This document shows, in pieces, positions 3,132 to 29,790 of a DNA stretch of 64,000 nucleotides (position 1 is its first letter; each line of letters begins with the position of its first letter). Source of the stretch: Waddliaceae bacterium (GTDB taxonomy: Bacteria; Chlamydiota; Chlamydiia; Chlamydiales; Waddliaceae). A program made the position numbers and the translations under genes. The stretch is taken from positions 256,001 to 320,000 of the forward strand of contig CAVRUH010000005.1 of assembly GCA_963724325.1 (NCBI GenBank), in the 5' to 3' direction. Under the pieces are notes generated by a model, which saw nothing but the letters and a program-made list of their open reading frames with translations, did no database searches and was not told where the DNA came from.

Positions 3132-3140
3132 GGAGTGAAT

Positions 3141-5842: not shown

Positions 5843-5861
5843 ATGCGTAGAAGCACATCTT

Positions 5862-6368
5862 AAATAACAATTCACAAAACTATAAAACCGTTGCAGCGCA
5901 GGCATAGGTATCGTAAACTTTCCTGCAAAAGGGAAACAGGATATGCAGGATCGCAAGCGGCAGGATATGAAGGATTATATGAAGATGATGTCAATTATTT
6001 TTTATTTTAAAGCAGGGTAAGAAGTTATATAAATCATTCATATCCTGCCGCTTGCGATCTTGCATATCCTGTTTTCCTTTTGCAGGAAGGTTAACAAGAT
6101 AGAGGTCATTGATACCTTGTAAACCTCCCTGCAAAAGGGAAACAGGATATGCAGGATCGCAAGCGGCAGGATATGAAGGATTATATGAAGATGATATCAA
6201 TTATTTTTTATTTTAAAGCAGGGTAAGAAGTTATATAAATCATTCATATCCTGCCGCTTGCGATCTTGCATATCCTGTTTTCCTTTTGCAGGAAGGTTTA
6301 CGATGCGTCTGCCTGCGCCTCCCTGCCGCTGCGCCTCTGCGTTTTTATAGTTCTGTGAATTGTTATTT
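5862..6368. repeat. Composite nested palindromic element (MITE/REP-like): outer inverted arms enclosing two tandem 183-bp units, each with ~58-bp terminal inverted repeats
   Basis: Outer arms AAATAACAATTCACAAAACTATAAAAC (5862) and GTTTTTATAGTTCTGTGAATTGTTATTT (ends 6368); inner units 5913-6095 and 6119-6301 are near identical. Confidence 0.9.
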
Positions 6369-8042: not shown

Positions 8043-8164
8043 GAATCTCTCCTGACTTATATTATTATATTAATTTTTTTGAATATATAATGTCAAATTT
8101 TTTGTTTGTAAAAAAATGGAGAATATTTTAATTTAAAGTTATTGAAAAATACATGGAGTAAATC

Positions 8165-11351: not shown

Positions 11352-12200
11352 TTACGTATGACCAGTAATTGGACGGCATTGTAAGAGGTATAACACTTCA
11401 TTGTGAATGGCGAGTTCGACATCTACAGGATATCCTTCATTTTCCTCGAGTTTTTTGATCATTTTTGAAACTTCAGCAAGTTGTGTCGGAGAAAATGAGG
11501 GCTTTTCCTGAAGAAAAGAGGGGACTTTCACATCTTTAGTTCCATCGTTACTCGGAATTGTCATCATTACTTTTTTATGAATATCCATTTCAATGATGGT
11601 TGCAACATTATTTTTATCGATGACGAAATGATCTGGGCTGACACTGCCATCTGCAATGGCTTTTCCCAAACCAAAATTTCCATTGATGACAATTTCATTT
11701 TTGCTTTTTGTGACAGGATTAATCGAGAATGCTACTGCAGATACATCTGAAGCAATACAGGCCTGTATCAAAACTGCAATATGAATATGTTCTAAATTTA
11801 ATTCATGTTTTTTTCGGTATTCCTTGACAACATCATCGTGAGAAGAGGCCCAGCACTTAACAATCGCGTTGAATAGCATTTCTTCGCCAATAATATTGAG
11901 AAAGGTGTCATGTTGTCCGGCAAAAGATACATTTGGTTTATCTTCATCTACAGCTGAGGAACGCACTGCAACTGAGGGATTCTTTACCCCCATAATTTGT
12001 CCTAGTTTGTGATAACTTTCGGCTATTTCTTTCTTTTCAGTATCATCTAATGCAGTATGTTTCGCTTCAATTTTGACGGAAGCTATACAAAATCCAGGGG
12101 GGACATTAAATTTTTCTTTGAGACGGCTGCAATTCGCTGCCTTGGGTCCTACCCTTTGTGGATCATTGCAATTTTCATCTCCTAACCAACGTATATCCAA
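11352..12200 (-). CDS. Stand-alone PEP/pyruvate-binding ATP-grasp domain (PPDK_N), probable partner of 6363..8042
   Basis: VGPKAAN, VPPGF, VAVRSSAVDED, SFAGQHDTFLN, DVELAI...LLQCRPIT motifs; TTG start with RBS GGAGG. Confidence 0.88.
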   Translation of the reverse strand: MDIRWLGDENCNDPQRVGPKAANCSRLKEKFNVPPGFCIASVKIEAKHTALDDTEKKEIAESYHKLGQIMGVKNPSVAVRSSAVDEDKPNVSFAGQHDTFLNIIGEEMLFNAIVKCWASSHDDVVKEYRKKHELNLEHIHIAVLIQACIASDVSAVAFSINPVTKSKNEIVINGNFGLGKAIADGSVSPDHFVIDKNNVATIIEMDIHKKVMMTIPSNDGTKDVKVPSFLQEKPSFSPTQLAEVSKMIKKLEENEGYPVDVELAIHNEVLYLLQCRPITGHT

Positions 12201-12322: not shown

Positions 12323-12862
12323 ATGCCAAGAGGTCAAATTATGAAAGAACAAGAAGTTGCAGCATTAATTTTTAAGTTATATGAATTAGGCGGCAAGCCT
12401 GCAGCGCGTGGCGCTGGAATCAGGAAATATCCTGAGGAGGCAGCTTTAATTCTAAAACTCTATGAATTGCGTCGGGAGCCAGTCATGCGTGAAGCTAGAA
12501 AATGGTGTACCTGGTCGTTAAACTTCGCAAGTGCTCAGGATTATTTTGACATTATGTTAAGTGAGAACAGTGACAGGATGCGCATGGTTTTTTCATATTG
12601 GGACATGGCAGCTTGTTTAGTAGAAACTGGACACATCAGTGATAAATTATTCAATAGTGTTGCCGACGAGCACATGTGGATGTTGGCCATCATTGAACCA
12701 ATTCTTGATGATGTTCGAAAAGGAATGCAGCGTCCGGATTACTTGATAAATTTAGAAGCAGTCATACATCGCATTCCTGGATACAAAGAAATGTTAGAGA
12801 ATAAACGGCAGGCACTGAAGGGAATGAAAGCAATGGCAGCGGAGCGTATGAAGAAAAAATAA
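12323..12862 (+). CDS. DUF4760-like protein, paralog A (with duplicated N-terminal helix)
   Basis: LILKLYELRREPVMREARKW...MVFSYWDMAACLV; ATG 12323 after GGAG; stop overlaps bshC start (TAATG). Confidence 0.6.
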   Translation: MPRGQIMKEQEVAALIFKLYELGGKPAARGAGIRKYPEEAALILKLYELRREPVMREARKWCTWSLNFASAQDYFDIMLSENSDRMRMVFSYWDMAACLVETGHISDKLFNSVADEHMWMLAIIEPILDDVRKGMQRPDYLINLEAVIHRIPGYKEMLENKRQALKGMKAMAAERMKKK

Positions 12863-14151
12863 TGAAAATCATTATTCGCGAAAAGCCACAGCTCTATGCG
12901 AAGTCTCCATTAGAAAAATTTTTGGAGATTCCACCTCGAGATCCAATGGCGATCGCCCTTTCTAGAAAACAATTAGAAAATCGACAATTTCCCAGGAAAA
13001 CTTTATCTAATATATTAGTAGATTACAACCAAGCAATAGGAAATGATTCACTAGCTATTGAAAATGCAAAAAAAATAGCTACAGAAGGCTCAGTTTGTGT
13101 CATCACAGGACAGCAGCTTGGACTATTTGGAGGTTCCTCATATACTATCTTAAAAGCCATTTCAGCTCTTTTGCTAGCCAAAGAAACGAATGCGATCCCC
13201 ATATTTTGGCTTGCCACAGAAGATCACGACGTCGATGAGATCAACCATACCTTTCTTTTGGACCCTATGGGAGACCTAAAAAGATTTCGTCTATCTCTCC
13301 CTAAAGATCACCGATTTGTTGAAGAGCTTGAGTTATCCGATAGAGATTTTGATGTGATTGCCACTTTTCAGGAAAAGGCAAAAATCAGTGCCATTCCCGA
13401 TGAACGATCCTATGTTCTTTATATGATAAAACAACTTCTTCCTCTGTTTGCAGGTACAGGCATAGTATTCGTTGAACCGAAACTTTTAAGGCCGCTTGCA
13501 ACATCATTTTTCCAAAAAGAAATTGCTGAGTGTGATGCAATTACTCAAATTCTACGCACTACCACGGATGAAATAGTGAAGGCCGGCGGAAGAGAGGGGA
13601 TAGAGATAGCTGAAGGAACAAATCTATTCATGAAGCAGAATGGATTATATCGCCGCAAGATACATCGCAAAGGAAAGGGTTTTCAGATTGCCGCCAAGGA
13701 CTATTCCATGCAGGAACTCGCGAAAATGATAGCAGATCATCCCGAACACTTTAGCACGAATGCCGCTGCCAGGCCCGTTTTACAAAGTTTAATTTTTCCG
13801 ACGTTAGCGTATGTGGGCGGACCTTCTGAAATAAATTATCACTACCAATTAGGAAATTACTTTCGCTTTCACGGAATTCCCATGCATTTGATTGTGCCAA
13901 GAATTTCAGCAACGATGATTACGCCTCAAGCTGAAAAATTATTGCGTGAATCGGGGTTAAATCCATGGGATGAGTTACCTTTAAAGTCTTTTCACTACGT
14001 TCGGAACTTGATATACCCTCATGAAAAGCTCCAAGAACGGATCCTCAATTGGTGGTCATTTCAATCGGCATCAAGCGAAAATCTTGTACAAGCATTACTT
14101 AAAAATGCTAACTGGAATACTGATGGGCATCTGTTCTGTTTTTTGGATTAG
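12862..14151 (+). CDS. bshC: Bacillithiol biosynthesis cysteine-adding enzyme BshC (short form)
   Basis: VITGQQLGLFGG, PIFWLATEDHDVDEINH, FSTNAAARP, LAYVGGPSEINY, PHEKLQER motifs. Confidence 0.88.
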   Translation: MKIIIREKPQLYAKSPLEKFLEIPPRDPMAIALSRKQLENRQFPRKTLSNILVDYNQAIGNDSLAIENAKKIATEGSVCVITGQQLGLFGGSSYTILKAISALLLAKETNAIPIFWLATEDHDVDEINHTFLLDPMGDLKRFRLSLPKDHRFVEELELSDRDFDVIATFQEKAKISAIPDERSYVLYMIKQLLPLFAGTGIVFVEPKLLRPLATSFFQKEIAECDAITQILRTTTDEIVKAGGREGIEIAEGTNLFMKQNGLYRRKIHRKGKGFQIAAKDYSMQELAKMIADHPEHFSTNAAARPVLQSLIFPTLAYVGGPSEINYHYQLGNYFRFHGIPMHLIVPRISATMITPQAEKLLRESGLNPWDELPLKSFHYVRNLIYPHEKLQERILNWWSFQSASSENLVQALLKNANWNTDGHLFCFLD

Positions 14152-15898: not shown

Positions 15899-17938
15899 TT
15901 GGATAATGAAACATTAGTTAAGGAGACGGGACTCCTAAAAATTCATGATATATCGGTATCGAAAGATTATCTCAATGCATGTCCGGTAAAAAAAATTAGC
16001 AAGGGTCAGATTTTCTATAAAGTCGGTGACATGGCCGATACAGTCTATATCATCAAGAAGGGAAAAGTACAGATTTTCATTACGGATTCGCGTGGAGAAG
16101 AACTAATACTGTCACTAAGAAAAGAAAAGGGCTTTTTTGGAGAAAATGCGATCATTTACCACAATGGAATGAAGAGGCTCTCTAATGCTCGAGCTTTTGA
16201 AGATTGCGAATATATAATGTTGCCGCAAGAAGAGCTTTATAAGTCACTCAGATCTGATAAAGAAATTACCAAACTTAAGCAAGAACGAGGTCCTGACTAT
16301 GTTTTTCAACAGCTAGAGCAAAATTTTCAGTATCTTCAAAAGAGCAAATTAGATTTTTCAAGTATTCAAGAAAAAACCAGGGCATTTAAAGATAGACAGG
16401 TTATCTTCTTTCAAAATGATAAGCCAGATTATGCATATTTAATCATGAATGGAGAGGTGGATATATGGTCAAAGCAAGAAAATGGGAAAGAAGGTGTTAA
16501 TATTATCCTTGGACAGGGTGAAATTTTTGGGGAACTAGGTGTTTTAAATGGGAATTCTCGTAATGCGATGGCTGTTTCTCGTGGTAACAGCGAGTTGATG
16601 CTCATAAATAAGGAAACTTTGTTGCGATTGTGTGGATCAAACACCAATTTTAAAAATATTATATCCTCCCTCGGTAATGTCTACAATGTTCCTCTATTGG
16701 GCAAAGCAAGGCGCTATGAAGGTGACTTTTTGGGGATGCCTGCCATTTGTATTAAAATGGAAAGCTTTAAACAAAAATCATTCTTAAGTTATCAAGTTGT
16801 GGGTAAAGATATATTTTGCTTCTCCGTGCTTGACATTGAAGGATACCAATCCTACTCTTTCATAAAAAATACTGATGAACGAATGGAAATATGGATAAAA
16901 GACGATGTCTTGGTCGGTCTAGTTAATTATGGTTCCGTAGATGACGGCAGTTCAATAGTGCAAATGATTTTACATATGACCAAAATCAACAGCAATGCCA
17001 TCAGTCATTTCGAGAAAACCGGGAAATTGACAGATATAGTTGTTCAGCCGCTTAAGGTGATAAAGGGAACAATATGCCAATGTATGCAAGTTAGCTATCA
17101 AACTGTTAATGATACAATTAAAACCGGAGAGAGTTCTCTTAGCCAAATCGTTAAAATAACAGGTGCAGGATCGGTTTGCGGTTCTTGCAAACCCAGAATT
17201 CAGGAATTGCTCGGATATGACGTATGGAAACTTTGTAAGCTGACGAGAATCATCAAACACAATGAGAAAATATGGTCCTTTCAATACTCACCCATTAATC
17301 CAGCAGAAAAATTATCTTTTCTTCCTGGTCAGTACGTTGTACTAAGATGTTTAATTCACAAAGAATGGATCGAAAGACCCTATACTCTAACAAGTCACCC
17401 AAATGATGATTTCTATGAAGTAACTATCAAAAAGGAGGAAAGGGGGGCCTTATCTAGGTGGCTGTTTGAGAACGCTTATGAGGGAATGATTAATCACATT
17501 TCAGAACCGCAAGGTAATTTCATATTTGACAATCCATTGGAAAAGCCCGTTATTATATTTGCCGGAGGAATCGGTATCACACCAGCAATAATCATGGCTA
17601 AAATGATTAAGGGGAGCTATCACAATGGCATATATGTTGACTATTCCTATAGATTTGAAAACGATGCCATCACTAGGGATTTTTTTGATAGTGCATGCGA
17701 CAAAAGCTCTAAATTCCAAATTAAATATCGCAATACCTCTTCTAAAGGACGAATTAGTTCCGATGAAATTGCCGAACCTATAAGAACTTTCAAAAATGCT
17801 GATATTTACATTTGCGGTCCCGTTGCTTATAATGAAAATGTTAAAAAGATGCTTGTAGAAAAGCATACTGTTCCAACAGGGAGAATATTTGTTGAAAATT
17901 TCTCTTATATTGGTGGTCCTGAAAGAAAACCTGTATAA
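15899..17938 (+). CDS. Fusion protein: 2x cNMP-binding + NirB C-terminal-like segment + BFD-like [2Fe-2S] + ferredoxin-NAD(P) reductase FAD/NAD domains (putative P450 redox partner)
   Basis: FFGENAII...R and IFGELGVLNGNSRNA cNMP cassettes; ICQCMQV...TGAGSVCGSCKP BFD motif; ERPYTLTS, GALSRWL, FAGGIGITP, YICGP, VENF FNR motifs; TTG start with RBS AAGGAGG. Confidence 0.85.
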   Translation: MDNETLVKETGLLKIHDISVSKDYLNACPVKKISKGQIFYKVGDMADTVYIIKKGKVQIFITDSRGEELILSLRKEKGFFGENAIIYHNGMKRLSNARAFEDCEYIMLPQEELYKSLRSDKEITKLKQERGPDYVFQQLEQNFQYLQKSKLDFSSIQEKTRAFKDRQVIFFQNDKPDYAYLIMNGEVDIWSKQENGKEGVNIILGQGEIFGELGVLNGNSRNAMAVSRGNSELMLINKETLLRLCGSNTNFKNIISSLGNVYNVPLLGKARRYEGDFLGMPAICIKMESFKQKSFLSYQVVGKDIFCFSVLDIEGYQSYSFIKNTDERMEIWIKDDVLVGLVNYGSVDDGSSIVQMILHMTKINSNAISHFEKTGKLTDIVVQPLKVIKGTICQCMQVSYQTVNDTIKTGESSLSQIVKITGAGSVCGSCKPRIQELLGYDVWKLCKLTRIIKHNEKIWSFQYSPINPAEKLSFLPGQYVVLRCLIHKEWIERPYTLTSHPNDDFYEVTIKKEERGALSRWLFENAYEGMINHISEPQGNFIFDNPLEKPVIIFAGGIGITPAIIMAKMIKGSYHNGIYVDYSYRFENDAITRDFFDSACDKSSKFQIKYRNTSSKGRISSDEIAEPIRTFKNADIYICGPVAYNENVKKMLVEKHTVPTGRIFVENFSYIGGPERKPV

Positions 17939-17950
17939 AAGGAGCAATTT

Positions 17951-19306
17951 ATGTCTCAAATTCCTGAAATCAAAATGCCTATTCCGGAATTTTTTTCTTG
18001 GGACCATCACGATCCAATAGGGCTGAAAGATTATATCTTTAATACCTATGGCGATATTTCCCAATTCAAGATCGGGCATTTCACCAATTATTTTTTCATG
18101 CATCCTGACTATGCCCAAGTTATACTTGGCACAAAACAGGATGATTTTTTTTATAAGCACCCATTTTTGGTGAAGGGACTTGAGCCAATCGTGGGTACAG
18201 AAACTATTTTTACAATGAATGATCCTGAAAAATGGGAAAAAAATCGACGTCTAGCTGTGCAACCTCTTGATGCAATGTTCTATTTTGAAAGGTATGCAAA
18301 AAAGTTATATGAAACAGGGGAAAAACGGGTTGAAGGATGGTTTCAAAAATACAAAGACAATGAAAAAGTCAACATGGCTCGCGAATTTGGTTGCATGACT
18401 TTAAGCGCCATTCATAATTCTTTCTTTTACTATATCGACGATAATCTCGAAGAAATGCATGATATGTTGTATAGATGCGCTCGCATCATTATCGGAAAAC
18501 AGACCTCACTTAATCACGCTGAATGGGAAACACCTGAGAAAAAGAAACTTTATTCAGAAGCAGTTCAAACGTTGCGAGAAACCTATTTGCGCTGGGTTAG
18601 AACTCGTCTTGATTCTGGCGCAGAAATTGATGATTTCATGGGAGTGATGATTCATGAGTACGCAAAGGAGTATAGTAGAGAAAAACTAATCGATCAAATA
18701 GCAAGACACGCTGCCATGGCTTCCAATGCGGGATTTTTTACCACTTCACCTGCTGTCTTATGGCTTTTTATCCAGCTGGCAAGGCATCCTAATATCGAAA
18801 AGAAAATGTGTGAGGAAATCAAGCGTGTCATCGGTGATGGACAACCAACATACGATCAATTAAAGCAATTGACATACTGCAATGCAGTGATTAAGGAGTC
18901 CATGCGATTGAACTCCACAAGTTACAATCAATTGAGAGAGTCTGTGGTCGACACATCTGTTCAAGATTACTTTATACCAAAAGGATCTGGAATTTTCATC
19001 TGCACCTCTCAGATTCACCGCCACCCTGACTTTTGGAAATATCCTGATGTATTTGATCCCGATCGATTTTTAGATAAAGCAATGGGACAGGATCATCCTT
19101 TTGCCTATATACCCTTTGGAGCGGGCAAAAGATCTTGCATCGCCCGGCATCTCGTATTTTTAGAATTCCTTATTGTTCTTGTGCTAGTCACACGAAGGTT
19201 TTCTTTTGAACTCTTACCCTTCAAGACCATTAAGCCTATAATGACTGCACCAATAACCATGAGGCCTAATGAAGATAATCTGATCATAAAATTCAAAAAA
19301 ACTTAA
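17951..19306 (+). CDS. Cytochrome P450 (paralog A)
   Basis: AGFFTTS I-helix, KESMRL (ExxR), FDPDRF, PFGAGKRSCIA heme ligand. Confidence 0.95.
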   Translation: MSQIPEIKMPIPEFFSWDHHDPIGLKDYIFNTYGDISQFKIGHFTNYFFMHPDYAQVILGTKQDDFFYKHPFLVKGLEPIVGTETIFTMNDPEKWEKNRRLAVQPLDAMFYFERYAKKLYETGEKRVEGWFQKYKDNEKVNMAREFGCMTLSAIHNSFFYYIDDNLEEMHDMLYRCARIIIGKQTSLNHAEWETPEKKKLYSEAVQTLRETYLRWVRTRLDSGAEIDDFMGVMIHEYAKEYSREKLIDQIARHAAMASNAGFFTTSPAVLWLFIQLARHPNIEKKMCEEIKRVIGDGQPTYDQLKQLTYCNAVIKESMRLNSTSYNQLRESVVDTSVQDYFIPKGSGIFICTSQIHRHPDFWKYPDVFDPDRFLDKAMGQDHPFAYIPFGAGKRSCIARHLVFLEFLIVLVLVTRRFSFELLPFKTIKPIMTAPITMRPNEDNLIIKFKKT

Positions 19307-19362
19307 ATAACAATTCACAAAACTATAAAAACGCAGAGGCGGTGACATACTTTTGTGAATTA
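19305..19362. repeat. Short copy of the outer arm of the 5862-6368 element
   Basis: AAATAACAATTCACAAAACTATAAAAACGCAGAGGCG matches the reverse complement of the right arm of the large element; ends with TTTTGTGAATTA; lies between convergent genes. Confidence 0.75.
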
Positions 19363-20484
19363 TGATTTTTTATTTAGGATGTATTCGTAGAACTGAACGT
19401 AGTGATTGATGATGTGAGAGACTGAGAACTTTTCACGTGCTCTTTTAATACTTTGCTGGCTCATTTTTTCGTATGCAATATTGTCTGAAAGTAGTTCAAT
19501 GGCATGATTTGCCATGCCATCAATGTCGCCTACAGGGCATAAATAACCCGTAATACCGTTTTCCACTACTTCTGGAAGCCCGCCAACATTTGCCCCAATC
19601 ACCGGCACCCCATAGGTCATAGCTTCTAATGCCACCAGTCCAAAACTTTCTTGTTCACTTGGGAGCAAAAGAAGATCGGCGCTTGCAATATACGAGTCAA
19701 TTTCTTGGTTAATTCCCAGAAAACATACATCTTCATCAAGATGATGATCCTGCACCATTTGATATATGTTATCAACTTCAGGGCCTGTTCCAAGTAATAA
19801 TAGTTTGCACTCAATTTTCTTTTTCATTTTTGTGAAGATCTTAATCACATCTCCAACGCGTTTCAGGGCACGGAAGTTTGAGGAGTGCAAAATCAGCTTT
19901 TCCCCTTCTTTAATGTAGCTCTCACGCATGTTTTGCGTCCCGATGAGGTCTCCATGAGGAATAAAAAAATTGTGAATGACTTCAATAGGCTTCTGAATAT
20001 CAAAATACTTCATAGTCGTTTCTTTTAAGTTTTCAGAAACCGCTGTTACCCCGTCACTTTTTTCAATGCTGAATTTTACAATTTCAAAATAACTGGGGTC
20101 TATGCCAACAAAAGTGATATCTGTCCCATGCAGCGTGGTGATTACCACAGGTCTCGATGTCCCTAACAACTGCTTTGCCAAAAAGGCACTTGTAGCATGC
20201 GGAATCGCATAATGGACATGCAGGACATCTAAATTGTATTTTTTAGAAATAGCGGCGATCTTAACAGAAAGAGTCAAAGCATAGTCGGGGTATTTAAACA
20301 GATCATAACGATTAATTTCTACACGATGAAAAAAAATTTTTTTAGTCTCAAACCTAAGTCTGAACGGGATTTCATAAGAAATAAAATGGATTTCATGACC
20401 TAATAATGCTAGTTGGTGTCCAAGTTCAGTTGCAAGGATACCGCTTCCTCCTAAGGATGGATAGCACACAATACCAATCTTCAT
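19360..20484 (-). CDS. bshA: N-acetyl-alpha-D-glucosaminyl L-malate synthase BshA (GT4)
   Basis: MKIGIVCYPSLGGSGILATELG, LHVHYAIPHA, TTLHGTDIT, SNFRALKRV, ESFGLVALEAM. Confidence 0.93.
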   Translation of the reverse strand: MKIGIVCYPSLGGSGILATELGHQLALLGHEIHFISYEIPFRLRFETKKIFFHRVEINRYDLFKYPDYALTLSVKIAAISKKYNLDVLHVHYAIPHATSAFLAKQLLGTSRPVVITTLHGTDITFVGIDPSYFEIVKFSIEKSDGVTAVSENLKETTMKYFDIQKPIEVIHNFFIPHGDLIGTQNMRESYIKEGEKLILHSSNFRALKRVGDVIKIFTKMKKKIECKLLLLGTGPEVDNIYQMVQDHHLDEDVCFLGINQEIDSYIASADLLLLPSEQESFGLVALEAMTYGVPVIGANVGGLPEVVENGITGYLCPVGDIDGMANHAIELLSDNIAYEKMSQQSIKRAREKFSVSHIINHYVQFYEYILNKKS

Positions 20485-20491
20485 TAATTTT

Positions 20492-21175
20492 CTAAACCTC
20501 GCGAGTACCCTTGGATATGGTCATGATGTCATCAATAAACAGAGGATTCCCTTTCATCAACCCCTGCGCATAGGGAACGCCCATCATCATTCCCAACCGT
20601 CCTGCCACAGTGTGTGTAATTTCCATGAAATCCATCGTTTTCATTTGACTCTCATGACATTGGATCATCTTTCGCCAAGCCTCCATATGATCGGAAATGT
20701 CAATCAAAAAATCAGGAACGGAAATCATAGGTGTCATGCAGTGTAATATACCATCTGGTCGATGAATAGGGAGATCAGGTAATATTTTCGCAAAACGCGA
20801 ATAGCGACATGCATTCCTTGATAGAAGGCCTGCAGCTATATGGTCTGGATGATTCTGCTCGCCTTTCCAATACGGTCCAAGAACAAGCCGGGGCTTGAAT
20901 TTCCGATACACTTCCACTAATTTTAACCGGCCTTCATAGTTGTCAAATACTCCACAATCAGGAAAATCGAGTATCACAACCTCTGCTCCAATAACGTCTG
21001 CAGCATTTTTTGCTTCTTTGCGCCTTATTTCTGGAGTTCCATTAGTCCCTCTTTCTCCGGAAGTAAGATGTACCATTACAATACTTTTTCCCTGCGAAGC
21101 CATCTTGGCTAAGATCCCTCCGCAAGTAAACTCAATGTCATCTGGATGTGCCCCTATTGCTAAAATGTCTACCAT
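20492..21175 (-). CDS. bshB1: Bacillithiol biosynthesis deacetylase BshB1 (PIG-L family)
   Basis: DILAIGAHPDDIE, GERGTNG, HPDH; directly upstream of bshA. Confidence 0.85.
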   Translation of the reverse strand: MVDILAIGAHPDDIEFTCGGILAKMASQGKSIVMVHLTSGERGTNGTPEIRRKEAKNAADVIGAEVVILDFPDCGVFDNYEGRLKLVEVYRKFKPRLVLGPYWKGEQNHPDHIAAGLLSRNACRYSRFAKILPDLPIHRPDGILHCMTPMISVPDFLIDISDHMEAWRKMIQCHESQMKTMDFMEITHTVAGRLGMMMGVPYAQGLMKGNPLFIDDIMTISKGTREV

Positions 21176-21301
21176 ATAACCTCATTGATGTGTGTATCAT
21201 TATTTTTTATACATAAAGTTGTATTTATTTGGTAACTTAAATCTTAAGTCATTAATAGTCTGCATGTTACTAATAACTATATAAAAAAATTAATTGTGCT
21301 A

Positions 21302-21330
21302 TTGATTTTTATCATTAAAATAATTAGTAT
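21302..21330 (+). promoter_or_regulatory. Putative sigma70/sigma66 promoter for the Cys-rich peptide gene
   Basis: TTGATT-N17-TAGTAT, followed by hairpin GAGATAAG/CTTATCTC (21340-21361) and RBS GGAGG. Confidence 0.4.
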
Positions 21331-21395
21331 TAGGAAAGGGAGATAAGTGTGTTCTTATCTCTATCAATTAAACTATAAAGTCTTTGGAGGAAATT

Positions 21396-21608
21396 ATGGC
21401 AAATTCATTAAGAGAAGCAGTTAGAAAATGTTGTAGCACTGATCCACAAAAAGTTGTGAAATGTCTTGAGGCATGTAACATTCCACTAACTCCTGAAGAT
21501 AAAGCATGTTTTGCTCAGTGCCGTCTTGAAAAATTTTCTGATTCAAAACTCGAAGCATGCTTTAGTCCAAAAGTATGCGGTATGTTAGGAATTAAAAATC
21601 CTAAGTAA
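21396..21608 (+). CDS. 70-aa cysteine-rich peptide (8 Cys); candidate RiPP precursor, protease substrate or metal-binding peptide
   Basis: MANSLREAVRKCCSTDPQKVVKCLEACNIPLTPEDKACFAQCRLEKFSDSKLEACFSPKVCGMLGIKNPK; strong RBS GGAGG before ATG 21396. Confidence 0.7.
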   Translation: MANSLREAVRKCCSTDPQKVVKCLEACNIPLTPEDKACFAQCRLEKFSDSKLEACFSPKVCGMLGIKNPK

Positions 21609-21621
21609 TCTAGAATCTATT

Positions 21622-23616
21622 TTATGAAAGGCTGTTCTTCGCAGCCTTTCTCAGAGCATTTACCCTTAGTAAGAACTTAACGATGACCACAGATGGCAAA
21701 AGCCAGCTGAGGTGAACGGTTGCAATCCCTAAGATCGTTTCAGGCAATACCATTCTTAAATAGTACTGGAATTCATAAGCTATAAATACTCCTGCTACCA
21801 GAAAGATAAAACATATGAGCCAATAGATAAGTTCATTCGAAAATTTTGGCCGAGATAACCATTTGTAGGCATCAACATCAAGATATTGTTGATTCAACGC
21901 TTCTTTACAAATTCCATAACCATCGCCATCAAACAAGGGATTCAAATTCTTAAATACACCGTAATATAATAAAAATGCCAATAGCCAAAAAAAGATCGCA
22001 AGTTGCGGTAACGGTATGATCCATGCCAGAATGCCTGCTATTCCTCCCATAAACAAATCCGCAAATGGACCAGCTATGCTGACACAAATGCGAGATGTAC
22101 GGTCCTCTAACCACATATCGGAAGTATCGACATATGCAATTAAACCAACCCAGGACAATATAACCCCGCCGTGATGTACTTCTCGACCATGAGATTTAGT
22201 TGCATATCCATGAGCAGCCTCGTGTATAACTACTGAAAATAGATAAACTAATAGTAGAGAAAAAAGAAGAGGAGCAACTGTAAAATTGGATTGAAGAATA
22301 GTCATCCCCTGAGCAAAAAATAATGACCACATGACGATCCCCAAAAGAGAAATACCCAATGTGATGATAAAACCTATAGGAGTAAACAAATATTGTACTA
22401 CTTTGCTGTAACTGTTGTTAAATTTGTGATCGATGTTATTAAATGTAATTTGAATATGACTCCATTTCCATATCAGGTCTTGAATACGCACTCTCAATGG
22501 TAACTCTTCTTTTGTCTCAATGGTACTAACATGGTGAATTTCCGGCATAAGAACAAAACCGGCATCTGCCAAATTAAATAAGGTGTCTGCAATAGCATCA
22601 GGAGCAAATATTTTGTGTAACTTATACATGTCTACAGTAAGCTCTTCTATCGTTCTCGTACCATCCAAAAGCTCCCATATATACCATCCTTCCTGAGACA
22701 GTTTAAAATACTTCCGATTAACAGGATCCTTAAGAATAGTCATCTTTTGGTCATCGTCTAATTGTCTTTCATAATGAAGGGTCCTCGCAAGGCGTATGGG
22801 ACGACTTCTTTGCACAACAAGGGTCATCATGGAAGCATGAATGTCGTGGTGTTCAATTAAGGCATCCAATTGTTTGCGTTTAAGAACAAGCAAAACACAT
22901 TTCATAAGTGTCCTAGCATTGGCATTTCGAGGGGAATCTGTTAAAATTGCCATTTCGCCGCAAATCATCGGCGGTTCTAATAGCGCTAGCCTTTTTCCAG
23001 TGCTATTTGTAATTTCTACCTGCCCATAACGGACAAGATAGCACTCTTCACCTTGATCACCTTCATTAAATAATGTGGTCCCACCTTCTACAATTCGTTC
23101 TTGAATCTGATCAGCAAGCCAAAGTATTTTTTCTTCAGGTAATGCTTCGAAAGGTTCCACTCTTTTAATAAAATTCATTCGCAATAATTTTTCGCCCAAT
23201 TGCTGCGTACTAGAATTAAATTCAGGATGTTTTTGAAGAAAATAATAAAAAGTTTCTAAATCCCATCCGATTAAAACGGTCTCTGTCAATGTTGTCAGCG
23301 TAGCTGTCCTCAGACCCGTACGGCTGAAAAATCCAAGTCGACTGAGTCCTATTGCATCTCCTTCTTTCAAGAGGATCACAGGAATTAGTTTAATTTGATC
23401 TCCTTCTTGTATCTCATGAGCGACTTCAACTTTGCCTTGAGCTATCAGATAGATCGCATCGACAATTTTTCCCTGTGATATGATCACTTGATTTTGAGGA
23501 AAGAGCTTTTCAAAAGAAAGCTTCACTAGTTCATCAATTTCTTCGGTCTTTAACTGACTGAAAAATGGATGGCTTGATACTAAAGATTTCTTATTTTCGG
23601 AACTCACTGAAGTCAT
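21622..23616 (-). CDS. 2x cNMP-binding + PqqD/RRE-like + M50 (site-2) membrane zinc peptidase fusion
   Basis: ICGEMAILTDSPRNANA cNMP cassette; YFKLSQEGWYIWELLDGTRTIEEL...LFNLADAGFV PqqD-like; VIHEAAH (HExxH), SIAGP, NLNPLFDGDGY M50 motifs with TM helices. Confidence 0.85.
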   Translation of the reverse strand: MTSVSSENKKSLVSSHPFFSQLKTEEIDELVKLSFEKLFPQNQVIISQGKIVDAIYLIAQGKVEVAHEIQEGDQIKLIPVILLKEGDAIGLSRLGFFSRTGLRTATLTTLTETVLIGWDLETFYYFLQKHPEFNSSTQQLGEKLLRMNFIKRVEPFEALPEEKILWLADQIQERIVEGGTTLFNEGDQGEECYLVRYGQVEITNSTGKRLALLEPPMICGEMAILTDSPRNANARTLMKCVLLVLKRKQLDALIEHHDIHASMMTLVVQRSRPIRLARTLHYERQLDDDQKMTILKDPVNRKYFKLSQEGWYIWELLDGTRTIEELTVDMYKLHKIFAPDAIADTLFNLADAGFVLMPEIHHVSTIETKEELPLRVRIQDLIWKWSHIQITFNNIDHKFNNSYSKVVQYLFTPIGFIITLGISLLGIVMWSLFFAQGMTILQSNFTVAPLLFSLLLVYLFSVVIHEAAHGYATKSHGREVHHGGVILSWVGLIAYVDTSDMWLEDRTSRICVSIAGPFADLFMGGIAGILAWIIPLPQLAIFFWLLAFLLYYGVFKNLNPLFDGDGYGICKEALNQQYLDVDAYKWLSRPKFSNELIYWLICFIFLVAGVFIAYEFQYYLRMVLPETILGIATVHLSWLLPSVVIVKFLLRVNALRKAAKNSLS

Positions 23617-23742
23617 TTGCTTAAATATCCTTTCCTGCTTTCACTCAACATAGCTTATTGTAAAAATAATACTCAATCGATTTCGATTGACATAAAAGGA
23701 ATTTTTTAAGAATTTGAGTTCAAAAATGAGGTAAAGTGAAAA

Positions 23743-25068
23743 TTGAACATTGAAACATTCGTTAGGGAATTGGGGCCGCTTAATATTCGTGATAATGCCG
23801 TATCCATTGGATACCTCAGGAAATGTCAGACTAAAAAATTCCTTAAAGGTCAATTAATTTATAAAATTGGTGAGATAGCCGATGCAGTCTATGTCATTAT
23901 TAGCGGAAAAGTTAAAATTTTCTATATAAATGAAAGCGGCGAAGAACTACTAGTGGCAGAAAAAAAAACAAAAGAATATTTCGGTGCCGATGCCCTCATT
24001 ACTTTTATGCCTTGTACTCGATTTTCAACAGCTCGTGCTACAGAAGATTCCGAATGCTTGGTGTTACTCAAACATGAACTCTATAAGGAATTTGAAACTC
24101 CTGCTGAAATATCAAAACTCACCGAAACAATGGGTTCCGATAACCTTTACAAAGAACTGGAGCAAAGTTTTAAAGATCTTCAACAAAATAAAATAGATCT
24201 TTCAAATATTCATGAAAAAAAAGCAAAATACTTAGACCGTCAAGTGATCTTCTTTCAGAATGAAAAACCGTTATATGCCTACATCATTGTCAGTGGTCAG
24301 GTTGATATTCGATCAGATACTCTAAATGAAAAAGAGGGTTTTAATAGTACTCTCGAAAAAGGTGAAATTTTTGGAGAATTGGGTTTGCTAAAAGATAGAC
24401 CCAGAGCTGCGATGGCAGTTTCTCGCGGCAATAGCGAACTGATGTTACTGGATAAAGAAACACTATTGCGGTTATATGGATCCAACGCCAACTTCAAAAA
24501 TATCATTACGACCTTAGGAAATACCTACAATTTACCTTTAAACGGCAGAACAATACGTTACGAAGGGGTTTTTCTAGGCATGAAAGCCATTTGTGTGAAA
24601 ATGGAACCATCTAAAGAAAAAACAGTGGTGAGTTATCAAGTTGTAGGTAAGGATATCTTCTGTATTTCCCAATTGGGTATTGAAGGCTACCAAACATATA
24701 TCTACAAAAAAAATCTTGAAGAAAGAAAAGAAATTTGGATTAAAAATGATTTATTAGTCGGCGTCGTCAATTACGGATCCAAAGATGATAACAGCGCATT
24801 GGTTGTAATGGTATTACAGGAAACAAAAGTAAGTAATAATGCTATTATGATTTTTCAAAAAACTGGAATATTTACTGAGCAGGCTGCGCAACCACTCAAG
24901 GTGTTAAATAACTTGCTCTGCAGATGCATGCAAGTTGAATATCAAACGGTGGCTCAAGCGATTCAATCCGGAGAAAATTCATTGGAACAAATCACAAAAA
25001 TTACAGGTGCTGGATCAGTTTGCGGCAGCTGTAGGCCAAAAATTAAAGAAATGCTAGGAAAGGACTAA
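23743..25068 (+). CDS. 2x cNMP-binding + BFD-like [2Fe-2S] protein (paralog of 15899..17938 without the reductase domains)
   Basis: IFGELGLLKDRPRAA; LCRCMQV...TGAGSVCGSCRP followed by stop; TTG start. Confidence 0.85.
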   Translation: MNIETFVRELGPLNIRDNAVSIGYLRKCQTKKFLKGQLIYKIGEIADAVYVIISGKVKIFYINESGEELLVAEKKTKEYFGADALITFMPCTRFSTARATEDSECLVLLKHELYKEFETPAEISKLTETMGSDNLYKELEQSFKDLQQNKIDLSNIHEKKAKYLDRQVIFFQNEKPLYAYIIVSGQVDIRSDTLNEKEGFNSTLEKGEIFGELGLLKDRPRAAMAVSRGNSELMLLDKETLLRLYGSNANFKNIITTLGNTYNLPLNGRTIRYEGVFLGMKAICVKMEPSKEKTVVSYQVVGKDIFCISQLGIEGYQTYIYKKNLEERKEIWIKNDLLVGVVNYGSKDDNSALVVMVLQETKVSNNAIMIFQKTGIFTEQAAQPLKVLNNLLCRCMQVEYQTVAQAIQSGENSLEQITKITGAGSVCGSCRPKIKEMLGKD

Positions 25069-25081
25069 AAAGGAATAGCTT

Positions 25082-26437
25082 ATGCCCGAAATACCAGTAA
25101 TAAAAATGCCCGAATCAGAATTTTTTTCCTGGAATCGAAACGATCCCGTAGGGCTTCGAAGGTATATTTTTAACACCTATGGTGATATCGCTAAAATCGA
25201 TATGAAATCAATGCCTAATTATTTTTTTATGAGTCCAGACCATGCACAAGTTATCTTTGGTGAAAAACAGGATAATTTTTTTGATAAACATCCATTTCTG
25301 GTACATGGTTTTGCCCCAATCATTGGTACAGACACATTTTTTACTCTGAATGATCGAGAAAAATGGAAAAAAGATCGTCATATTGCATTGAAAGCAATAG
25401 ATGCCATGGTCCACTTCGAACGCTATGCAAAAAGAATGTACGAAATGGGAAAAATGCGTGTCGATGGATGGACACAAAAATATAAAGATAACCAAAAAGT
25501 CAATATGGCGCGTGAATTTGGTTCAATGACCCTAGACTTCATTCATAATTCCTTCTTTTGCTATATCGATGAAGTCCCTGAAAAAATGTACGACACCCTG
25601 TATGACTGCGTAGGTATCATCATTGATAAGCAAACCTCTCTTAAACCCTCCGAATGGGAAACGCCAAAAAAAATAAAAATTTATGAAGATGCTGTCGGTA
25701 CATTAAGACAAATATATCAGATCTGGGTAAAAAATCGTCTCGACTCAGGCCAGGAGTTTGATGATTTTATGGGTCTAATGATTCATGAATACTCAAACGA
25801 GTTTGGCAAAGAAAAATTAATCGAAAATATGGCTCTTCAAGTCTCTATGGCCTCTACTGCAGGATTCTTCACCAGTTCTCCTGCCTTTTTGTGGCTCTTT
25901 ATAGAGCTGGCACAGCATCCCGATGTGGAAAAGAAAATTTGCGAAGAAATCAATCGTGTCATCGGCGATGGTCAACCAACATATGAACAAATAAGACAAC
26001 TGTCTTACTGCAATGCCGCGATCAAAGAATCCATGCGATTGAATCCTACAAGCTACAATACATTGAGAGTGTGTACGGAGGATACCTATGTCAAAGATTA
26101 TTTAATTCCGAAAGGATCAGGAATCATCGTTTCTATATCCCAAATTCACCGCCACCCAAATTTTTGGAAAGATCCAGATACTTTTAATCCCGATCGATTT
26201 TTAGACAAACCAATGGGGCAGGATCATCCCTATGCCTTTATCCCTTTCGGGGCTGGTAAAAGAGCTTGCATCGCCCGGCAGCTTGTATTTTTAGAACTAC
26301 TTATCGCTCTGGTGCTCATTACACGTCGATTTTCTTTTGAACTTGTTCCTTTTCGGCCTATTAAACCAATAATGACAGCGCCCATCACCATGAGGCCAAA
26401 TGAGACCGATCTGATCATAAAATTTAAAAAAACTTAA
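25082..26437 (+). CDS. Cytochrome P450 (paralog B)
   Basis: AGFFTSS, KESMRL, FNPDRF, PFGAGKRACIA; same length as and collinear with paralog A. Confidence 0.95.
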   Translation: MPEIPVIKMPESEFFSWNRNDPVGLRRYIFNTYGDIAKIDMKSMPNYFFMSPDHAQVIFGEKQDNFFDKHPFLVHGFAPIIGTDTFFTLNDREKWKKDRHIALKAIDAMVHFERYAKRMYEMGKMRVDGWTQKYKDNQKVNMAREFGSMTLDFIHNSFFCYIDEVPEKMYDTLYDCVGIIIDKQTSLKPSEWETPKKIKIYEDAVGTLRQIYQIWVKNRLDSGQEFDDFMGLMIHEYSNEFGKEKLIENMALQVSMASTAGFFTSSPAFLWLFIELAQHPDVEKKICEEINRVIGDGQPTYEQIRQLSYCNAAIKESMRLNPTSYNTLRVCTEDTYVKDYLIPKGSGIIVSISQIHRHPNFWKDPDTFNPDRFLDKPMGQDHPYAFIPFGAGKRACIARQLVFLELLIALVLITRRFSFELVPFRPIKPIMTAPITMRPNETDLIIKFKKT

Positions 26438-27886: not shown

Positions 27887-28780
27887 ATGAATACAATACT
27901 ATCTTTAGATGGCGGCGGTGTTCGTGGAATTATGCCCGCTGTTGTTCTAGCAGAAATCAACGATCTTGCCGGTAGACCTTTGACCGAACTTTTCCACTAC
28001 CAGATAGCAAGTTCAACAGGTGGTATCATTCAAGGAGCAAGTAATCTCCCCGATAAACCATTTTCCTATAAAGATATCGTTCAGCTCTATAAAGATAAAG
28101 CTCAAGATATTTTTAATAGAACTATTTGGAGTAAAATCACAAACCCAGAAGGATTATTTAAACCTAAATACCCTGAAACTGGCATTGATGCATTGTTCAA
28201 AAAAGAGTTTGGAGATGTAACCTTAAGTCAACTACGATCCAAGCATATTCATTTTACCTCTTACGACTTGCAGAAAGAGGCTTTTGTGACCCTGAATAGT
28301 AAAGATAACCCGAAAATGCTTTTGCGGGACACAGTTCGCGAGGCAACAGCGGCTCCATATTATTTTAAAGAGAAATCTGGGCATATCGATGGGGGGGTGG
28401 GAGCAAATAATCCTTCAGGAGTCGGGTATAGTATTGCAGTAAAAGAGGGTGCCTCTAATAGAAATACATTTGTATTATCTGTAGGAACTGGAAAAGTAAA
28501 AACCGGAATTAACTTAGGCGACGGAGGCCTTTTGGGAGTTCTTCCAAAGCTTCCTAGGCTATATACGGAAGTCGAAATGGGGGCTGCAGATTTAATGATG
28601 ATCAATTTTCTTGGAAAAAATTATTTCAGGATCGAATTTAGCCTCACAGACGAACAGGATTCATTAGATAATGCATCCTCAGATAATTTAAATACCCTTG
28701 AAAAAATTGCTGAAACCTACATAGATAACCACAAAGATGATCTAACAAGACTAGTCAAAAAGCTAGTTGGTAAAAAATAA
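27887..28780 (+). CDS. Patatin-like phospholipase
   Basis: LSLDGGGVRG oxyanion loop, ASSTG nucleophile elbow (GxSxG variant), AAPYYF, DGGVGANNP, LSVGTG. Confidence 0.88.
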   Translation: MNTILSLDGGGVRGIMPAVVLAEINDLAGRPLTELFHYQIASSTGGIIQGASNLPDKPFSYKDIVQLYKDKAQDIFNRTIWSKITNPEGLFKPKYPETGIDALFKKEFGDVTLSQLRSKHIHFTSYDLQKEAFVTLNSKDNPKMLLRDTVREATAAPYYFKEKSGHIDGGVGANNPSGVGYSIAVKEGASNRNTFVLSVGTGKVKTGINLGDGGLLGVLPKLPRLYTEVEMGAADLMMINFLGKNYFRIEFSLTDEQDSLDNASSDNLNTLEKIAETYIDNHKDDLTRLVKKLVGKK

Positions 28781-28798
28781 AAATTTACTGCTTCGGTA

Positions 28799-28963
28799 TA
28801 TACCGAAGTAACCTCATAATTTGATTTTGTGGCTTCGTCAAAGCCCCGGGGTTGAATCGATCGTAAATGACCTTATATTTCTAATATTAGGTCATTTACG
28901 ATCGTTCAACCGCGGGTGCTTTCACGAAGCCACAGAACCAAATTATGAGGTTACTTCGGTATA
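28799..28963. repeat. 165-bp imperfect palindrome (MITE/REP-like)
   Basis: TATACCGAAGTAACCTCATAATTTG... and ...CAAATTATGAGGTTACTTCGGTATA arms with pairing along most of the length; overlaps OTU gene stop. Confidence 0.85.
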
Positions 28964-29790
28964 AGTAAGTCGTAGTGCCCTGGACGATAGAGGAGTGAAA
29001 TGTCTTCTCCATTTCCGCCAATAAAATGGTGCTCGGCATCCATGGGTTCTCCTTTTCCTATTGCAGAAGCATGCAGGATGTGAAACTTTAAACCTAAAAC
29101 ATCTGCAAGAACGTTAAGTTCAGCATTACCTCCCATTTCAGCCTTAGCCATATCTACCATCTTGAGTTTATAATTCTTGTAAGAGCCATAATCGACAATT
29201 GCAGCATTTATAGCGCCTTCATTATTTTCCGTCCCCCTAACAGCAATTTTACGCAGGATATGTACAAGTTTGTTAGATAATCGGGTATTTCCAATTAAAC
29301 TTTCAACGGAAGCATCCTTGTTTTCAGCGAGAAAATCTGCTAGTTCTTTTGGAATAGCATCATTTATATCCTTGCCATTTTTAAGGTGGTATAGCATTCC
29401 AGCAGCAATAGCGCGGAACATGCAGTGGCCATCCCCCTTTATCCTACGCAATTTGTATTGGGTATCTAAGGTTTCCAATCCTTTTTTGACATCACCTGAA
29501 TCATAGGTTTTTGCAAGTGATTTTAGAGTTGATTGTTTGTCCATGAGAGGTCGTTGGACCTGTTTTGCATCGATTTTGCTGAAAATTTTGGTAGCAATAC
29601 TTTCCAAACGTTGGCGAAGTTCAAATACCTGTCTTGGATTGTGACCTCTTTCCCGCAGGCCGCTTAAGTCATCTTCAAAAATCTCAATAAATCCTTTGTC
29701 TACCTCACAACCATTCTTTTGTGCTTTTTCCATGCATTGCATAAAGTAAACTGTATCTTGATATGAAGGGAAATTATTATTATTTACCAT
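28951..29790 (-). CDS. OTU/otubain-like cysteine protease (putative deubiquitinase effector)
   Basis: RRIKGDGHCMFRAIA (D-x-x-C) and LLYRPGHYD (His box as in otubains). Confidence 0.82.
   Translation of the reverse strand: MVNNNNFPSYQDTVYFMQCMEKAQKNGCEVDKGFIEIFEDDLSGLRERGHNPRQVFELRQRLESIATKIFSKIDAKQVQRPLMDKQSTLKSLAKTYDSGDVKKGLETLDTQYKLRRIKGDGHCMFRAIAAGMLYHLKNGKDINDAIPKELADFLAENKDASVESLIGNTRLSNKLVHILRKIAVRGTENNEGAINAAIVDYGSYKNYKLKMVDMAKAEMGGNAELNVLADVLGLKFHILHASAIGKGEPMDAEHHFIGGNGEDISLLYRPGHYDLLIPK

What the first reader, a model, noticed from the sequence alone, without database searches (positions are those of the whole stretch)
15899..26437. Duplicated cytochrome P450 cassettes whose redox partners carry tandem cyclic-nucleotide-binding domains
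Seen: two cassettes (15899-19306 and 23743-26437), each a cNMP-cNMP-[NirB C-terminal-like]-BFD [2Fe-2S] gene directly followed by a 451-aa P450. Only cassette A keeps the FAD/NAD reductase domains; B stops right after the CGSC ferredoxin motif. The second cNMP domain of each has a canonical FGEL...R phosphate-binding cassette. Established: P450 partners are normally plain ferredoxin/reductase or CPR-type domains; I know of no characterised cNMP-domain P450 partner. Inference: a cAMP/cGMP-gated electron chain, with A's reductase possibly feeding B's ferredoxin in trans, which would tie oxidation chemistry to a second messenger that could be host-derived.
Basis: partly seen in the sequence, partly recalled or inferred. 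Interest (0 to 1): 0.88.

Follow-up and report, generated by a model that had tools for sequence, protein, structure and literature searches.

The report
Nucleotide-sensor reductases paired with duplicated P450s
A host-associated bacterium carries two copies of a P450 enzyme gene, each placed behind a gene for a likely electron-supplying partner with two cyclic-nucleotide-sensor domains; one partner has cleanly lost its flavin part and would have to borrow electrons, and a small-molecule switch on P450 chemistry is predicted but untested.

Summary
Observation confirmed. Cassette A encodes cNMP-cNMP-linker-BFD[2Fe-2S]-FAD/NAD(P) reductase (679 aa) then a P450; cassette B the same without the reductase domains (441 aa) then a 69%-identical P450. 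The module is a widespread, uncharacterised family: among 150 best representatives it is fused to P450 (9), NOS oxygenase (6), desaturase (2), multihaem cytochrome (3) or a His-rich membrane domain (25). So it is a general electron-supply module, not P450-specific, and it works like GcoB or the Sorangium NOS reductase. Pairing with this P450 clade looks inherited: reductase and P450 trees branch alike. Both nucleotide pockets keep G-E...R in 141 of 174 family sequences; other NOS fusions carry EF-hands instead, which favours regulation. B is not decaying (dN/dS 0.21; deletion ends at the domain border). Against: two paralogues in this genome have no P450 beside them, nucleotide binding and trans feeding are untested, and all 17 clade P450s lack the I-helix acid. 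Host-derived cAMP is not needed: four own cyclase genes exist. This scan noted the same module twice before on other DNA; new here are the duplication, the conserved flavin-less copy and the acid-less P450 clade. New variant of a known kind.

The parts
15899..17938 (+). Reductase A: cNMP-cNMP-linker-BFD[2Fe-2S]-FAD/NAD(P) (FNR-type), 679 aa
15989..16255 (+). A, first cNMP-binding domain, pocket G81-E82...R93 intact
16379..16639 (+). A, second cNMP-binding domain, FGELGVL...R-N-A
16688..17029 (+). A, linker domain like the region of NirB before its first BFD cluster (Rubredoxin_C-like, lead only)
17069..17212 (+). A, BFD-type [2Fe-2S] domain, C393/C395/C427/C430
17222..17920 (+). A, FNR-type FAD and NAD(P) domains (RxYT, GGIGITP, CGP, terminal F); absent from B
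17951..19306 (+). P450-A, 451 aa; haem Cys396 and ExxR kept, I-helix AGFFTT (acid replaced by Phe); 12 nt after reductase stop with AAGGAG site
23743..25068 (+). Partner B: cNMP-cNMP-linker-BFD, 441 aa, no FNR domains; first pocket E82A, second intact (R-A-A); under purifying selection
25082..26437 (+). P450-B, 451 aa, 69% identical to P450-A, I-helix AGFFTS; 13 nt after B stop with AAGGA site
21622..23616 (-). Neighbour, divergent from B: cNMP-cNMP-PqqD(RRE-like)-M50 peptidase; probably a separate module
21396..21608 (+). Neighbour: 70-aa, 8-Cys ORF; its homologue sits beside the same M50 gene in G001; probably that peptidase's partner, not part of the P450 cassettes

Best explanation
Gene A encodes a two-cNMP-domain, iron-sulfur, flavin protein that likely passes electrons from NAD(P)H through FAD and its BFD [2Fe-2S] cluster to the haem of the P450 encoded right behind it, and the two cNMP domains are predicted to act as a ligand switch on that flow. 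Steps: domain content, operon-like spacing and cofactor residues are shown; redox partnership is inferred from fusions and co-inheritance (about 0.85); cyclic-nucleotide binding is inferred from conserved pockets (about 0.7, cAMP more likely than cGMP for B's second pocket); gating of electron transfer by that ligand is inferred (about 0.5). The cassette was duplicated, and copy B lost exactly the FAD/NAD(P) domains; B likely still works as a sensor-ferredoxin for P450-B and would take electrons from a full-length paralogue, most simply A (about 0.45). The P450s lack the usual I-helix acid, so they likely use substrate-assisted or otherwise unusual proton delivery; the substrate is not identified.
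For: Fusions of the same module to a P450 in one chain: L019, L029, L034 and 9 of 150 representatives (8 with a P450 domain, 1 partial); also to NOS oxygenase (6 of 150), desaturase (2), multihaem cytochrome c (3), a His-rich membrane domain (25). Stand-alone members lie directly before a desaturase-type gene in L012, L093, L094 and before a P450 in L022 and L058; L058's P450 falls in the same P450 clade (support 1.0) and its reductase fragment is closest to P0168, a near group of A/B. Nearest reductases P0002/P0003 and nearest P450s P0024/P0025 share longest-contig lengths (65,446; 54,480 on 7 contigs) and branch in the same order. All four BFD Cys in 172 of 174 and FNR motifs in about 167-171 of 174 family sequences, the rest mostly gaps; both pockets G-E...R in 141 of 174. 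A's FNR part superposes on the P450 reductase GcoB at Z 23.6, rmsd 2.4, 230 aligned. EF-hands precede BFD-FNR in NOS fusions L024 and L031 (alignment to the family E 5e-58). B: dN/dS 0.324/1.539, 13 B-specific against 21 A-specific changes, ribosome site kept.
Against: Two paralogues on contig C7 (674 aa full, and a BFD-ending one) have no P450 or other oxygenase beside them. Only 3 of 18 metagenome loci with the cNMP-BFD-FNR chain are P450-linked; 98 of 150 representatives are unfused and their neighbours were not seen. Pocket conservation was counted on hits ranked by a profile that contains the pockets, and the sequences are related. The A/B lineage's first cNMP domain has drifted from the family consensus (39 and 37 of 54 conserved columns against 49 for the C7 full copy). 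dN/dS cannot date the deletion. An adjacent reductase need not work: SyoB did not support SyoA O-demethylation (PMC11842817, passages). The four own cyclases have Ser/Ala at the catalytic Asn position.
Confidence: 0.5

Rival explanations
1. A is the P450's reductase, but the tandem cNMP-fold domains do not gate electron flow through cAMP/cGMP; they bind another ligand or serve for assembly or localisation.
For: cNMP folds with other roles exist (own knowledge); B's first pocket has lost its Glu and the A/B lineage's first domain has drifted; BFD-FNR-NOS and BFD-FNR-membrane fusions occur with no cNMP domain detected; the organism's cyclases lack the catalytic Asn.
Against: Both pockets intact in 141 of 174 family sequences at about 25-30% overall identity; EF-hands occupy the N-terminal position in other NOS fusions; best structural relatives of the tandem are PKA/PKG regulatory domains.
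Confidence: 0.25
2. B is a recently truncated or decoy copy with no electron-carrying role; P450-B is served by A directly, by a housekeeping ferredoxin, or by peroxide.
For: Truncations recur in this lineage: the C7 short copy has a changed cluster motif (G422C, G428W) and the G001 copy ends before the BFD; only 2 of 174 sequences end after the BFD, both from this genome (search biased to full-length); the genome has 3 Fer2 matches; 0 of 17 clade P450s keep the I-helix acid, a feature also missing in peroxygenases (PMC11842817, passages).
Against: B's end falls at the domain border with stop codon and ribosome site in place, all four Cys kept, BFD dN/dS 0.31, no excess of B-specific changes; the P450 has Phe, not an acid-base residue, at that position.
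Confidence: 0.17
3. The two P450s tailor the small Cys-rich peptide at 21396-21608 together with the cNMP-RRE-M50 peptidase, making one cNMP-controlled peptide-modification cluster.
For: Peptide ORF and cNMP-PqqD-M50 gene lie between the cassettes, the M50 gene divergent from B across 126 nt; M50 matches the daptide peptidase model weakly (82 bits against cut-off 300) and the P450s the RiPP P450 ApyO weakly (96 against 525); five of the window's genes here share cNMP or P450 domains.
Against: In same-genus G001 (97% complete) the peptide-M50 pair stands without a P450 cassette and no clade P450 was found; bshA/bshB1 housekeeping-type genes interrupt the cluster; no M50 gene beside L058, L019, L029 or L022.
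Confidence: 0.08

Closest known systems
GcoAB two-component P450 system (GcoB; PMC6021390, passages read; PDB 5ogx)
   Same: Separate P450 plus one-chain reductase in the order [2Fe-2S]-FAD-NAD(P); A's FNR part superposes on GcoB (Z 23.6).
   Different: GcoB has a putidaredoxin-like ferredoxin and no sensor domains; here the cluster domain is BFD-type and is preceded by two cNMP domains and a linker domain; the P450 is BM3/CYP46-like in fold, not CYP255.
N-terminal reductase of Sorangium cellulosum NOS and SiliNOS (described in PMC4436077 and PMC3701330, passages read; Agapie 2009 itself not held)
   Same: N-terminal [2Fe-2S]-FAD-NAD reductase feeding a thiolate haem; family members of A are fused to NOS oxygenase in this order. 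That the scNOS cluster is BFD-type is recalled, and scNOS itself was not aligned.
   Different: No cNMP domains are mentioned for scNOS or SiliNOS in the passages seen; here the acceptor is a separate P450 and one copy lacks the flavin domains.
PKA/PKG tandem cyclic-nucleotide-binding regulatory domains
   Same: Two cNMP domains in tandem with G-E...R phosphate-binding cassettes; best PDB sequence and fold matches of this part.
   Different: The output domain is an iron-sulfur flavoprotein, not a kinase; binding not tested.
Class VII (PFOR-fused, CYP116B) and class VIII (BM3) self-sufficient P450s (table in PMC9112060, passages read)
   Same: Some family members are one-chain reductase-P450 fusions (L019, L029, P0227 and others).
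   Different: Reductase is N-terminal, BFD-based and sensor-capped; the window's genes are not fused.

Membership tests
Cytochrome P450 | Fold, ExxR and FxxGxRxC haem ligand | tested here: met
   Pfam E about 1e-70; ESMR and FGAGKRSC/AC; model pLDDT 93, Z 42 to CYP46A1/BM3
Canonical P450 monooxygenase | I-helix acid-alcohol pair (D/E-T) | tested here: not met
   Acid position F in 13, T in 3, N in 1 of 17 clade members; E/D in 36 of 36 background P450s; Thr/Ser kept in 17 of 17
GcoB-type two-component P450 reductase | [2Fe-2S]-FAD-NAD(P) domains in one chain beside a P450 gene | tested here: met
   A; not met for B, which lacks FAD/NAD domains
GcoB-type two-component P450 reductase | Putidaredoxin/plant-type (Fer2) ferredoxin domain | tested here: not met
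   Cluster domain is Fer2_BFD; genome Fer2 matches lie elsewhere
GcoB-type two-component P450 reductase | Electron transfer to the P450 | not testable with these tools
   needs purified proteins
scNOS/SiliNOS-type reductase module | N-terminal [2Fe-2S]-FAD-NAD module homologous to that of reductase-first NOS proteins | tested here: met
   Family profile aligns to BFD-FNR of NOS fusion L024 over 340 columns, E 5e-58; scNOS itself not compared
scNOS/SiliNOS-type NOS | Fused NOS oxygenase domain | tested here: not met
   No NO_synthase domain in A or B
cAMP/cGMP receptor (CRP/PKA-type CNB) | Phosphate-binding cassette G-E...R | tested here: met
   3 of 4 pockets intact (A1, A2, B2); B1 E to A
cAMP/cGMP receptor (CRP/PKA-type CNB) | Nucleotide binding and allosteric output | not testable with these tools
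   needs ITC and kinetics
NirB nitrite reductase | Full-length match with Pyr_redox and sirohaem domains | tested here: not met
   Only profile positions 320-469 of 794 match, 45-49 bits against cut-off 578

The most novel reading that the evidence does not exclude
A widespread second-messenger-gated electron-supply module switches P450s, NO synthases and desaturases on and off with cAMP, and in this genome a flavin-less sensor-ferredoxin (B) forms a split, trans-fed chain with A so that two acid-less P450s are gated separately from one flavin source.
Probability: 0.25. Interest if true: 0.85.

Novelty: new variant of a known kind. Interest (0 to 1): 0.62.

Why it matters
P450 and bacterial NOS redox chains are not known (in the papers searched) to carry their own cyclic-nucleotide sensors. 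If the pockets gate electron flow, this is a bacterial counterpart to calmodulin control of NOS, usable as a switchable reductase, and it would speak to the open question of what input turns on reductase-fused bacterial NOS (stated as unknown in PMC4436077). The A/B pair is a natural domain-deletion experiment: soluble, two-gene, easy to express. The acid-less P450 clade may do unusual chemistry.

Tried and rejected
Genome-contig scan with the single protein found one irrelevant FNR fragment. Profile homologue search returned the same 21 proteins as the first, so no new contig-length matches; 0 of 10 further reductases matched. Plasmid search gave one FNR-only match. ESM Atlas gave only scores under 0.9. 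Pfam gave nothing for the linker domain or the small ORF beyond chance, and for the membrane tail only a weak Ferric_reduct match in 1 of 5 (E 0.0012). Promoter and terminator scans were at chance level (30 against 39 expected; 8 against 8.6); repeats only reflect the duplication. Chlamydial marker families PF03504 and PF07079 found nothing and their controls were silent, so the chlamydial label stays an inference. Complex prediction of A with B was not available, so whether they associate is open. Agapie 2009 is not held. Paper searches showed no paper on a cNMP-domain P450 or NOS reductase; subscription journals are not covered. Rejected: assembly artefact (58%/69% identity, GC like the rest of the contig); B as a simple nonsense mutant (no FNR remnant, 13-nt spacer); P450-specific module.
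Full report
Observation. Pfam gives A two cNMP domains, a BFD [2Fe-2S] domain and FAD/NAD domains, B two cNMP domains and the BFD only, and both downstream genes a full P450. A and B align without gaps over 441 aa at 58%, the P450s at 69%. B stops at the residue matching A441, between BFD and FAD domains; the spacers to the P450 starts are 12 and 13 nt, each with an AAGGA site overlapping the stop. So B is a clean 238-codon deletion, not a nonsense mutant. The linker domain matches NirB profile positions 320-469 of 794, far under the cut-off; Atlas neighbours are Rubredoxin_C+BFD proteins at 0.82, a lead only.

Genome context. The window lies in G000 (2.37 Mb, 85% complete). Five TLC nucleotide transporters point to an intracellular lifestyle; a chlamydial identity is my inference from gene content, and two marker tests were uninformative. 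Two more family members lie on contig C7, one full-length (674 aa) and one ending after the BFD; neither has a P450 beside it. The family was found in 4 of 400 genomes of the phylum, G000 included; the P450 profile matched 2 of 400, and the second match (G305) falls outside the clade. A lateral origin of the cassette is inferred from this patchiness.

The family. A profile search of 1.84 billion representatives returned full-length relatives throughout the best 150. Of those 150: 98 unfused full modules (some partial), 2 with an N-terminal FAD-enzyme domain, 25 with a His-rich membrane tail, 9 fused to a P450 (one partial, one with a NOS remnant as well), 6 to NOS oxygenase, 3 to multihaem cytochrome c, 2 to a desaturase (one partial), B itself, one without BFD, and 3 unrelated multi-cNMP proteins. 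Of 80 metagenome loci, 18 hold cNMP, BFD and FNR in one ORF: 6 membrane-tail fusions, 3 NOS fusions, 2 P450 fusions, 1 with a P450 next, 1 with a desaturase next, 1 with no adjacent oxygenase, 1 frameshifted and not examined further, 3 cut by the contig end. G234 and G308 carry the module directly before a desaturase-type gene. The common thread is a haem or di-iron electron acceptor, so the module is a general electron supply; P450 is one of several clients. NOS fusions L024 and L031 have EF-hands instead of cNMP domains ahead of the same BFD-FNR core.

Co-inheritance with this P450 clade. Their DNA was not seen. L058 shows a family FNR end 14 nt before a distant member of the same P450 clade. 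The fused P450s form two other groups, so P450 pairing seems to have arisen several times (FastTree, midpoint root, weak deep nodes; 67 sequences, background limited to 36 of the 103 non-clade hits).

Cofactor and pocket residues. In 174 aligned family sequences (related, some near-duplicates, chosen by a profile that includes the pockets) the four BFD cysteines are present in 172, the FNR motifs in about 167-171, and both G-E...R pockets in 141. A keeps both pockets; B keeps the second (R-A-A, the PKA-like cAMP pattern; residue role recalled) and has E82A in the first. The AlphaFold model of A (pLDDT 80, pTM 0.46, so domain packing is unresolved) matches PKA/PKG tandem domains and FNR-type reductases including GcoB.

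Is B alive? A versus B: dN 0.324, dS 1.539; BFD alone 0.345/1.128; P450 pair 0.188/1.315. At sites where both outgroups agree, A has 21 private changes and B 13. B is therefore not visibly decaying, though these figures cannot date the deletion. The C7 pair sits in a different clade, so loss of the FNR part happened twice in this genome; only these 2 of 174 sequences end after the BFD (a search biased to full length). The C7 short copy has altered cluster-loop residues and the G001 copy ends before the BFD, which keeps decay or reuse as a pure sensor open.

The P450s. Good model (pLDDT 93; Z about 42 to CYP46A1 and BM3), haem Cys and ExxR kept, but the I-helix acid is Phe in both and absent in 17 of 17 clade members against present in 36 of 36 background P450s. 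The acid delivers protons in most P450s and is replaced in peroxygenases such as SyoA, whose neighbouring reductase did not support O-demethylation (PMC11842817, passages). No NCBIfam P450 model reaches its cut-off. Substrate unknown; desaturase, patatin and FadL neighbours in this family's loci hint at lipids (inference).

Source of the messenger. Four tandem zinc-ribbon-cyclase-AAA-TPR genes lie on C7. They keep the metal Asp residues, the adenine-selecting Lys and Asp and the Arg, but have Ser or Ala for the Asn (roles recalled). An own source is possible, not shown; host cAMP is neither needed nor excluded.

Comparison with known systems. It works like GcoAB, a P450 with a separate [2Fe-2S]-FAD-NADH reductase (PMC6021390, passages), and its core is the kind described for Sorangium and Silicibacter NOS (PMC4436077 and PMC3701330, passages; PMC9500659 passages added nothing; Agapie 2009 not held). 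It is not a member of either family as defined: BFD rather than putidaredoxin-type cluster, no NOS domain, and two sensor domains. The ten redox-partner classes tabulated in PMC9112060 (passages) include no sensor-capped type. Searches (listings only) showed no paper on such a protein; subscription journals are not covered and no supplements were read. Earlier scan notes e1-1401822 and e1-3870105 describe the same module on other DNA; I reached that reading before seeing them and they are not independent evidence.

Verdict. Real; a new variant of a known kind. Redox partner about 0.85, nucleotide binding about 0.7, gating about 0.5, trans feeding of B about 0.45. Interest 0.62; 0.85 if gating and the split chain are shown.

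Noticed in passing
window 21396-23616: 70-aa 8-Cys ORF and a cNMP-cNMP-PqqD-M50 peptidase gene (HExxH and NxxPxxxxDG intact); the pair recurs in G001 (L108:9775-12202, 37% and 44%) in tandem, here tail to tail; looks like a precursor-like peptide with its RRE peptidase.
   Followed up: partly
L002:9499-11523 and L003:9953-11392 (G000 C7): Two further family members without P450; the short one abuts a receiver/Hpt, GAF-PAS-histidine kinase cluster and may serve as a sensor.
   Followed up: partly
L102:4764-17797 (G000 C7): Four tandem, near-identical double-zinc-ribbon / class III cyclase / AAA / TPR genes, all with Ser or Ala at the catalytic Asn.
   Followed up: partly
G000 C7 540000-561902 (L104): GC 0.59-0.64 against 0.40 for the genome, with foreign-looking genes; probable contamination or misjoin. 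The weak P450 matches at C7:550k lie here.
   Followed up: partly
L103:5602-7143 (G000 C1): Third, very divergent P450 (513 aa) with an atypical ExxR position and no reductase beside it.
   Followed up: no
L017, L043, L053, P0184, P0197, P0213, P0247, P0256, P0261: NO synthases with tandem cNMP domains and BFD-FNR reductase in one chain; L024 and L031 have EF-hands instead. Candidate cAMP- or calcium-gated bacterial NOS.
   Followed up: partly
P0277, P0279: Chains with cNMP-BFD-FNR, a remnant of NOS oxygenase (Pfam match in P0277), then a divergent P450: possible record of an acceptor swap.
   Followed up: no
L013, L015, L020, L041, L048 C-terminal 160-180 aa: His-rich four-helix membrane domain, the commonest fusion partner (25 of 150); no Pfam family above cut-off, weak ferric-reductase match in one; probably a b-type haem domain.
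   Followed up: partly
window 1929-9631: Two halogenase-like and one FAD monooxygenase gene, and a split rifamycin-phosphotransferase-like pair (PEP-utiliser 6363-8042, PPDK_N 11352-12200; family label recalled), suggesting a small-molecule-modification island.
   Followed up: no
window 12862-14151, 19360-21175: bshC-, bshA- and bshB1-like bacillithiol genes interleaved with the P450 cassettes (bshA/bshB1 labels recalled from GT4 and PIG-L domains); duplicated DUF4760 genes flank bshC.
   Followed up: no
window 27887-29790: Patatin-like and OTU/otubain-like ORFs, effector-like, separated by an 81-nt inverted repeat at 28799-28963.
   Followed up: no
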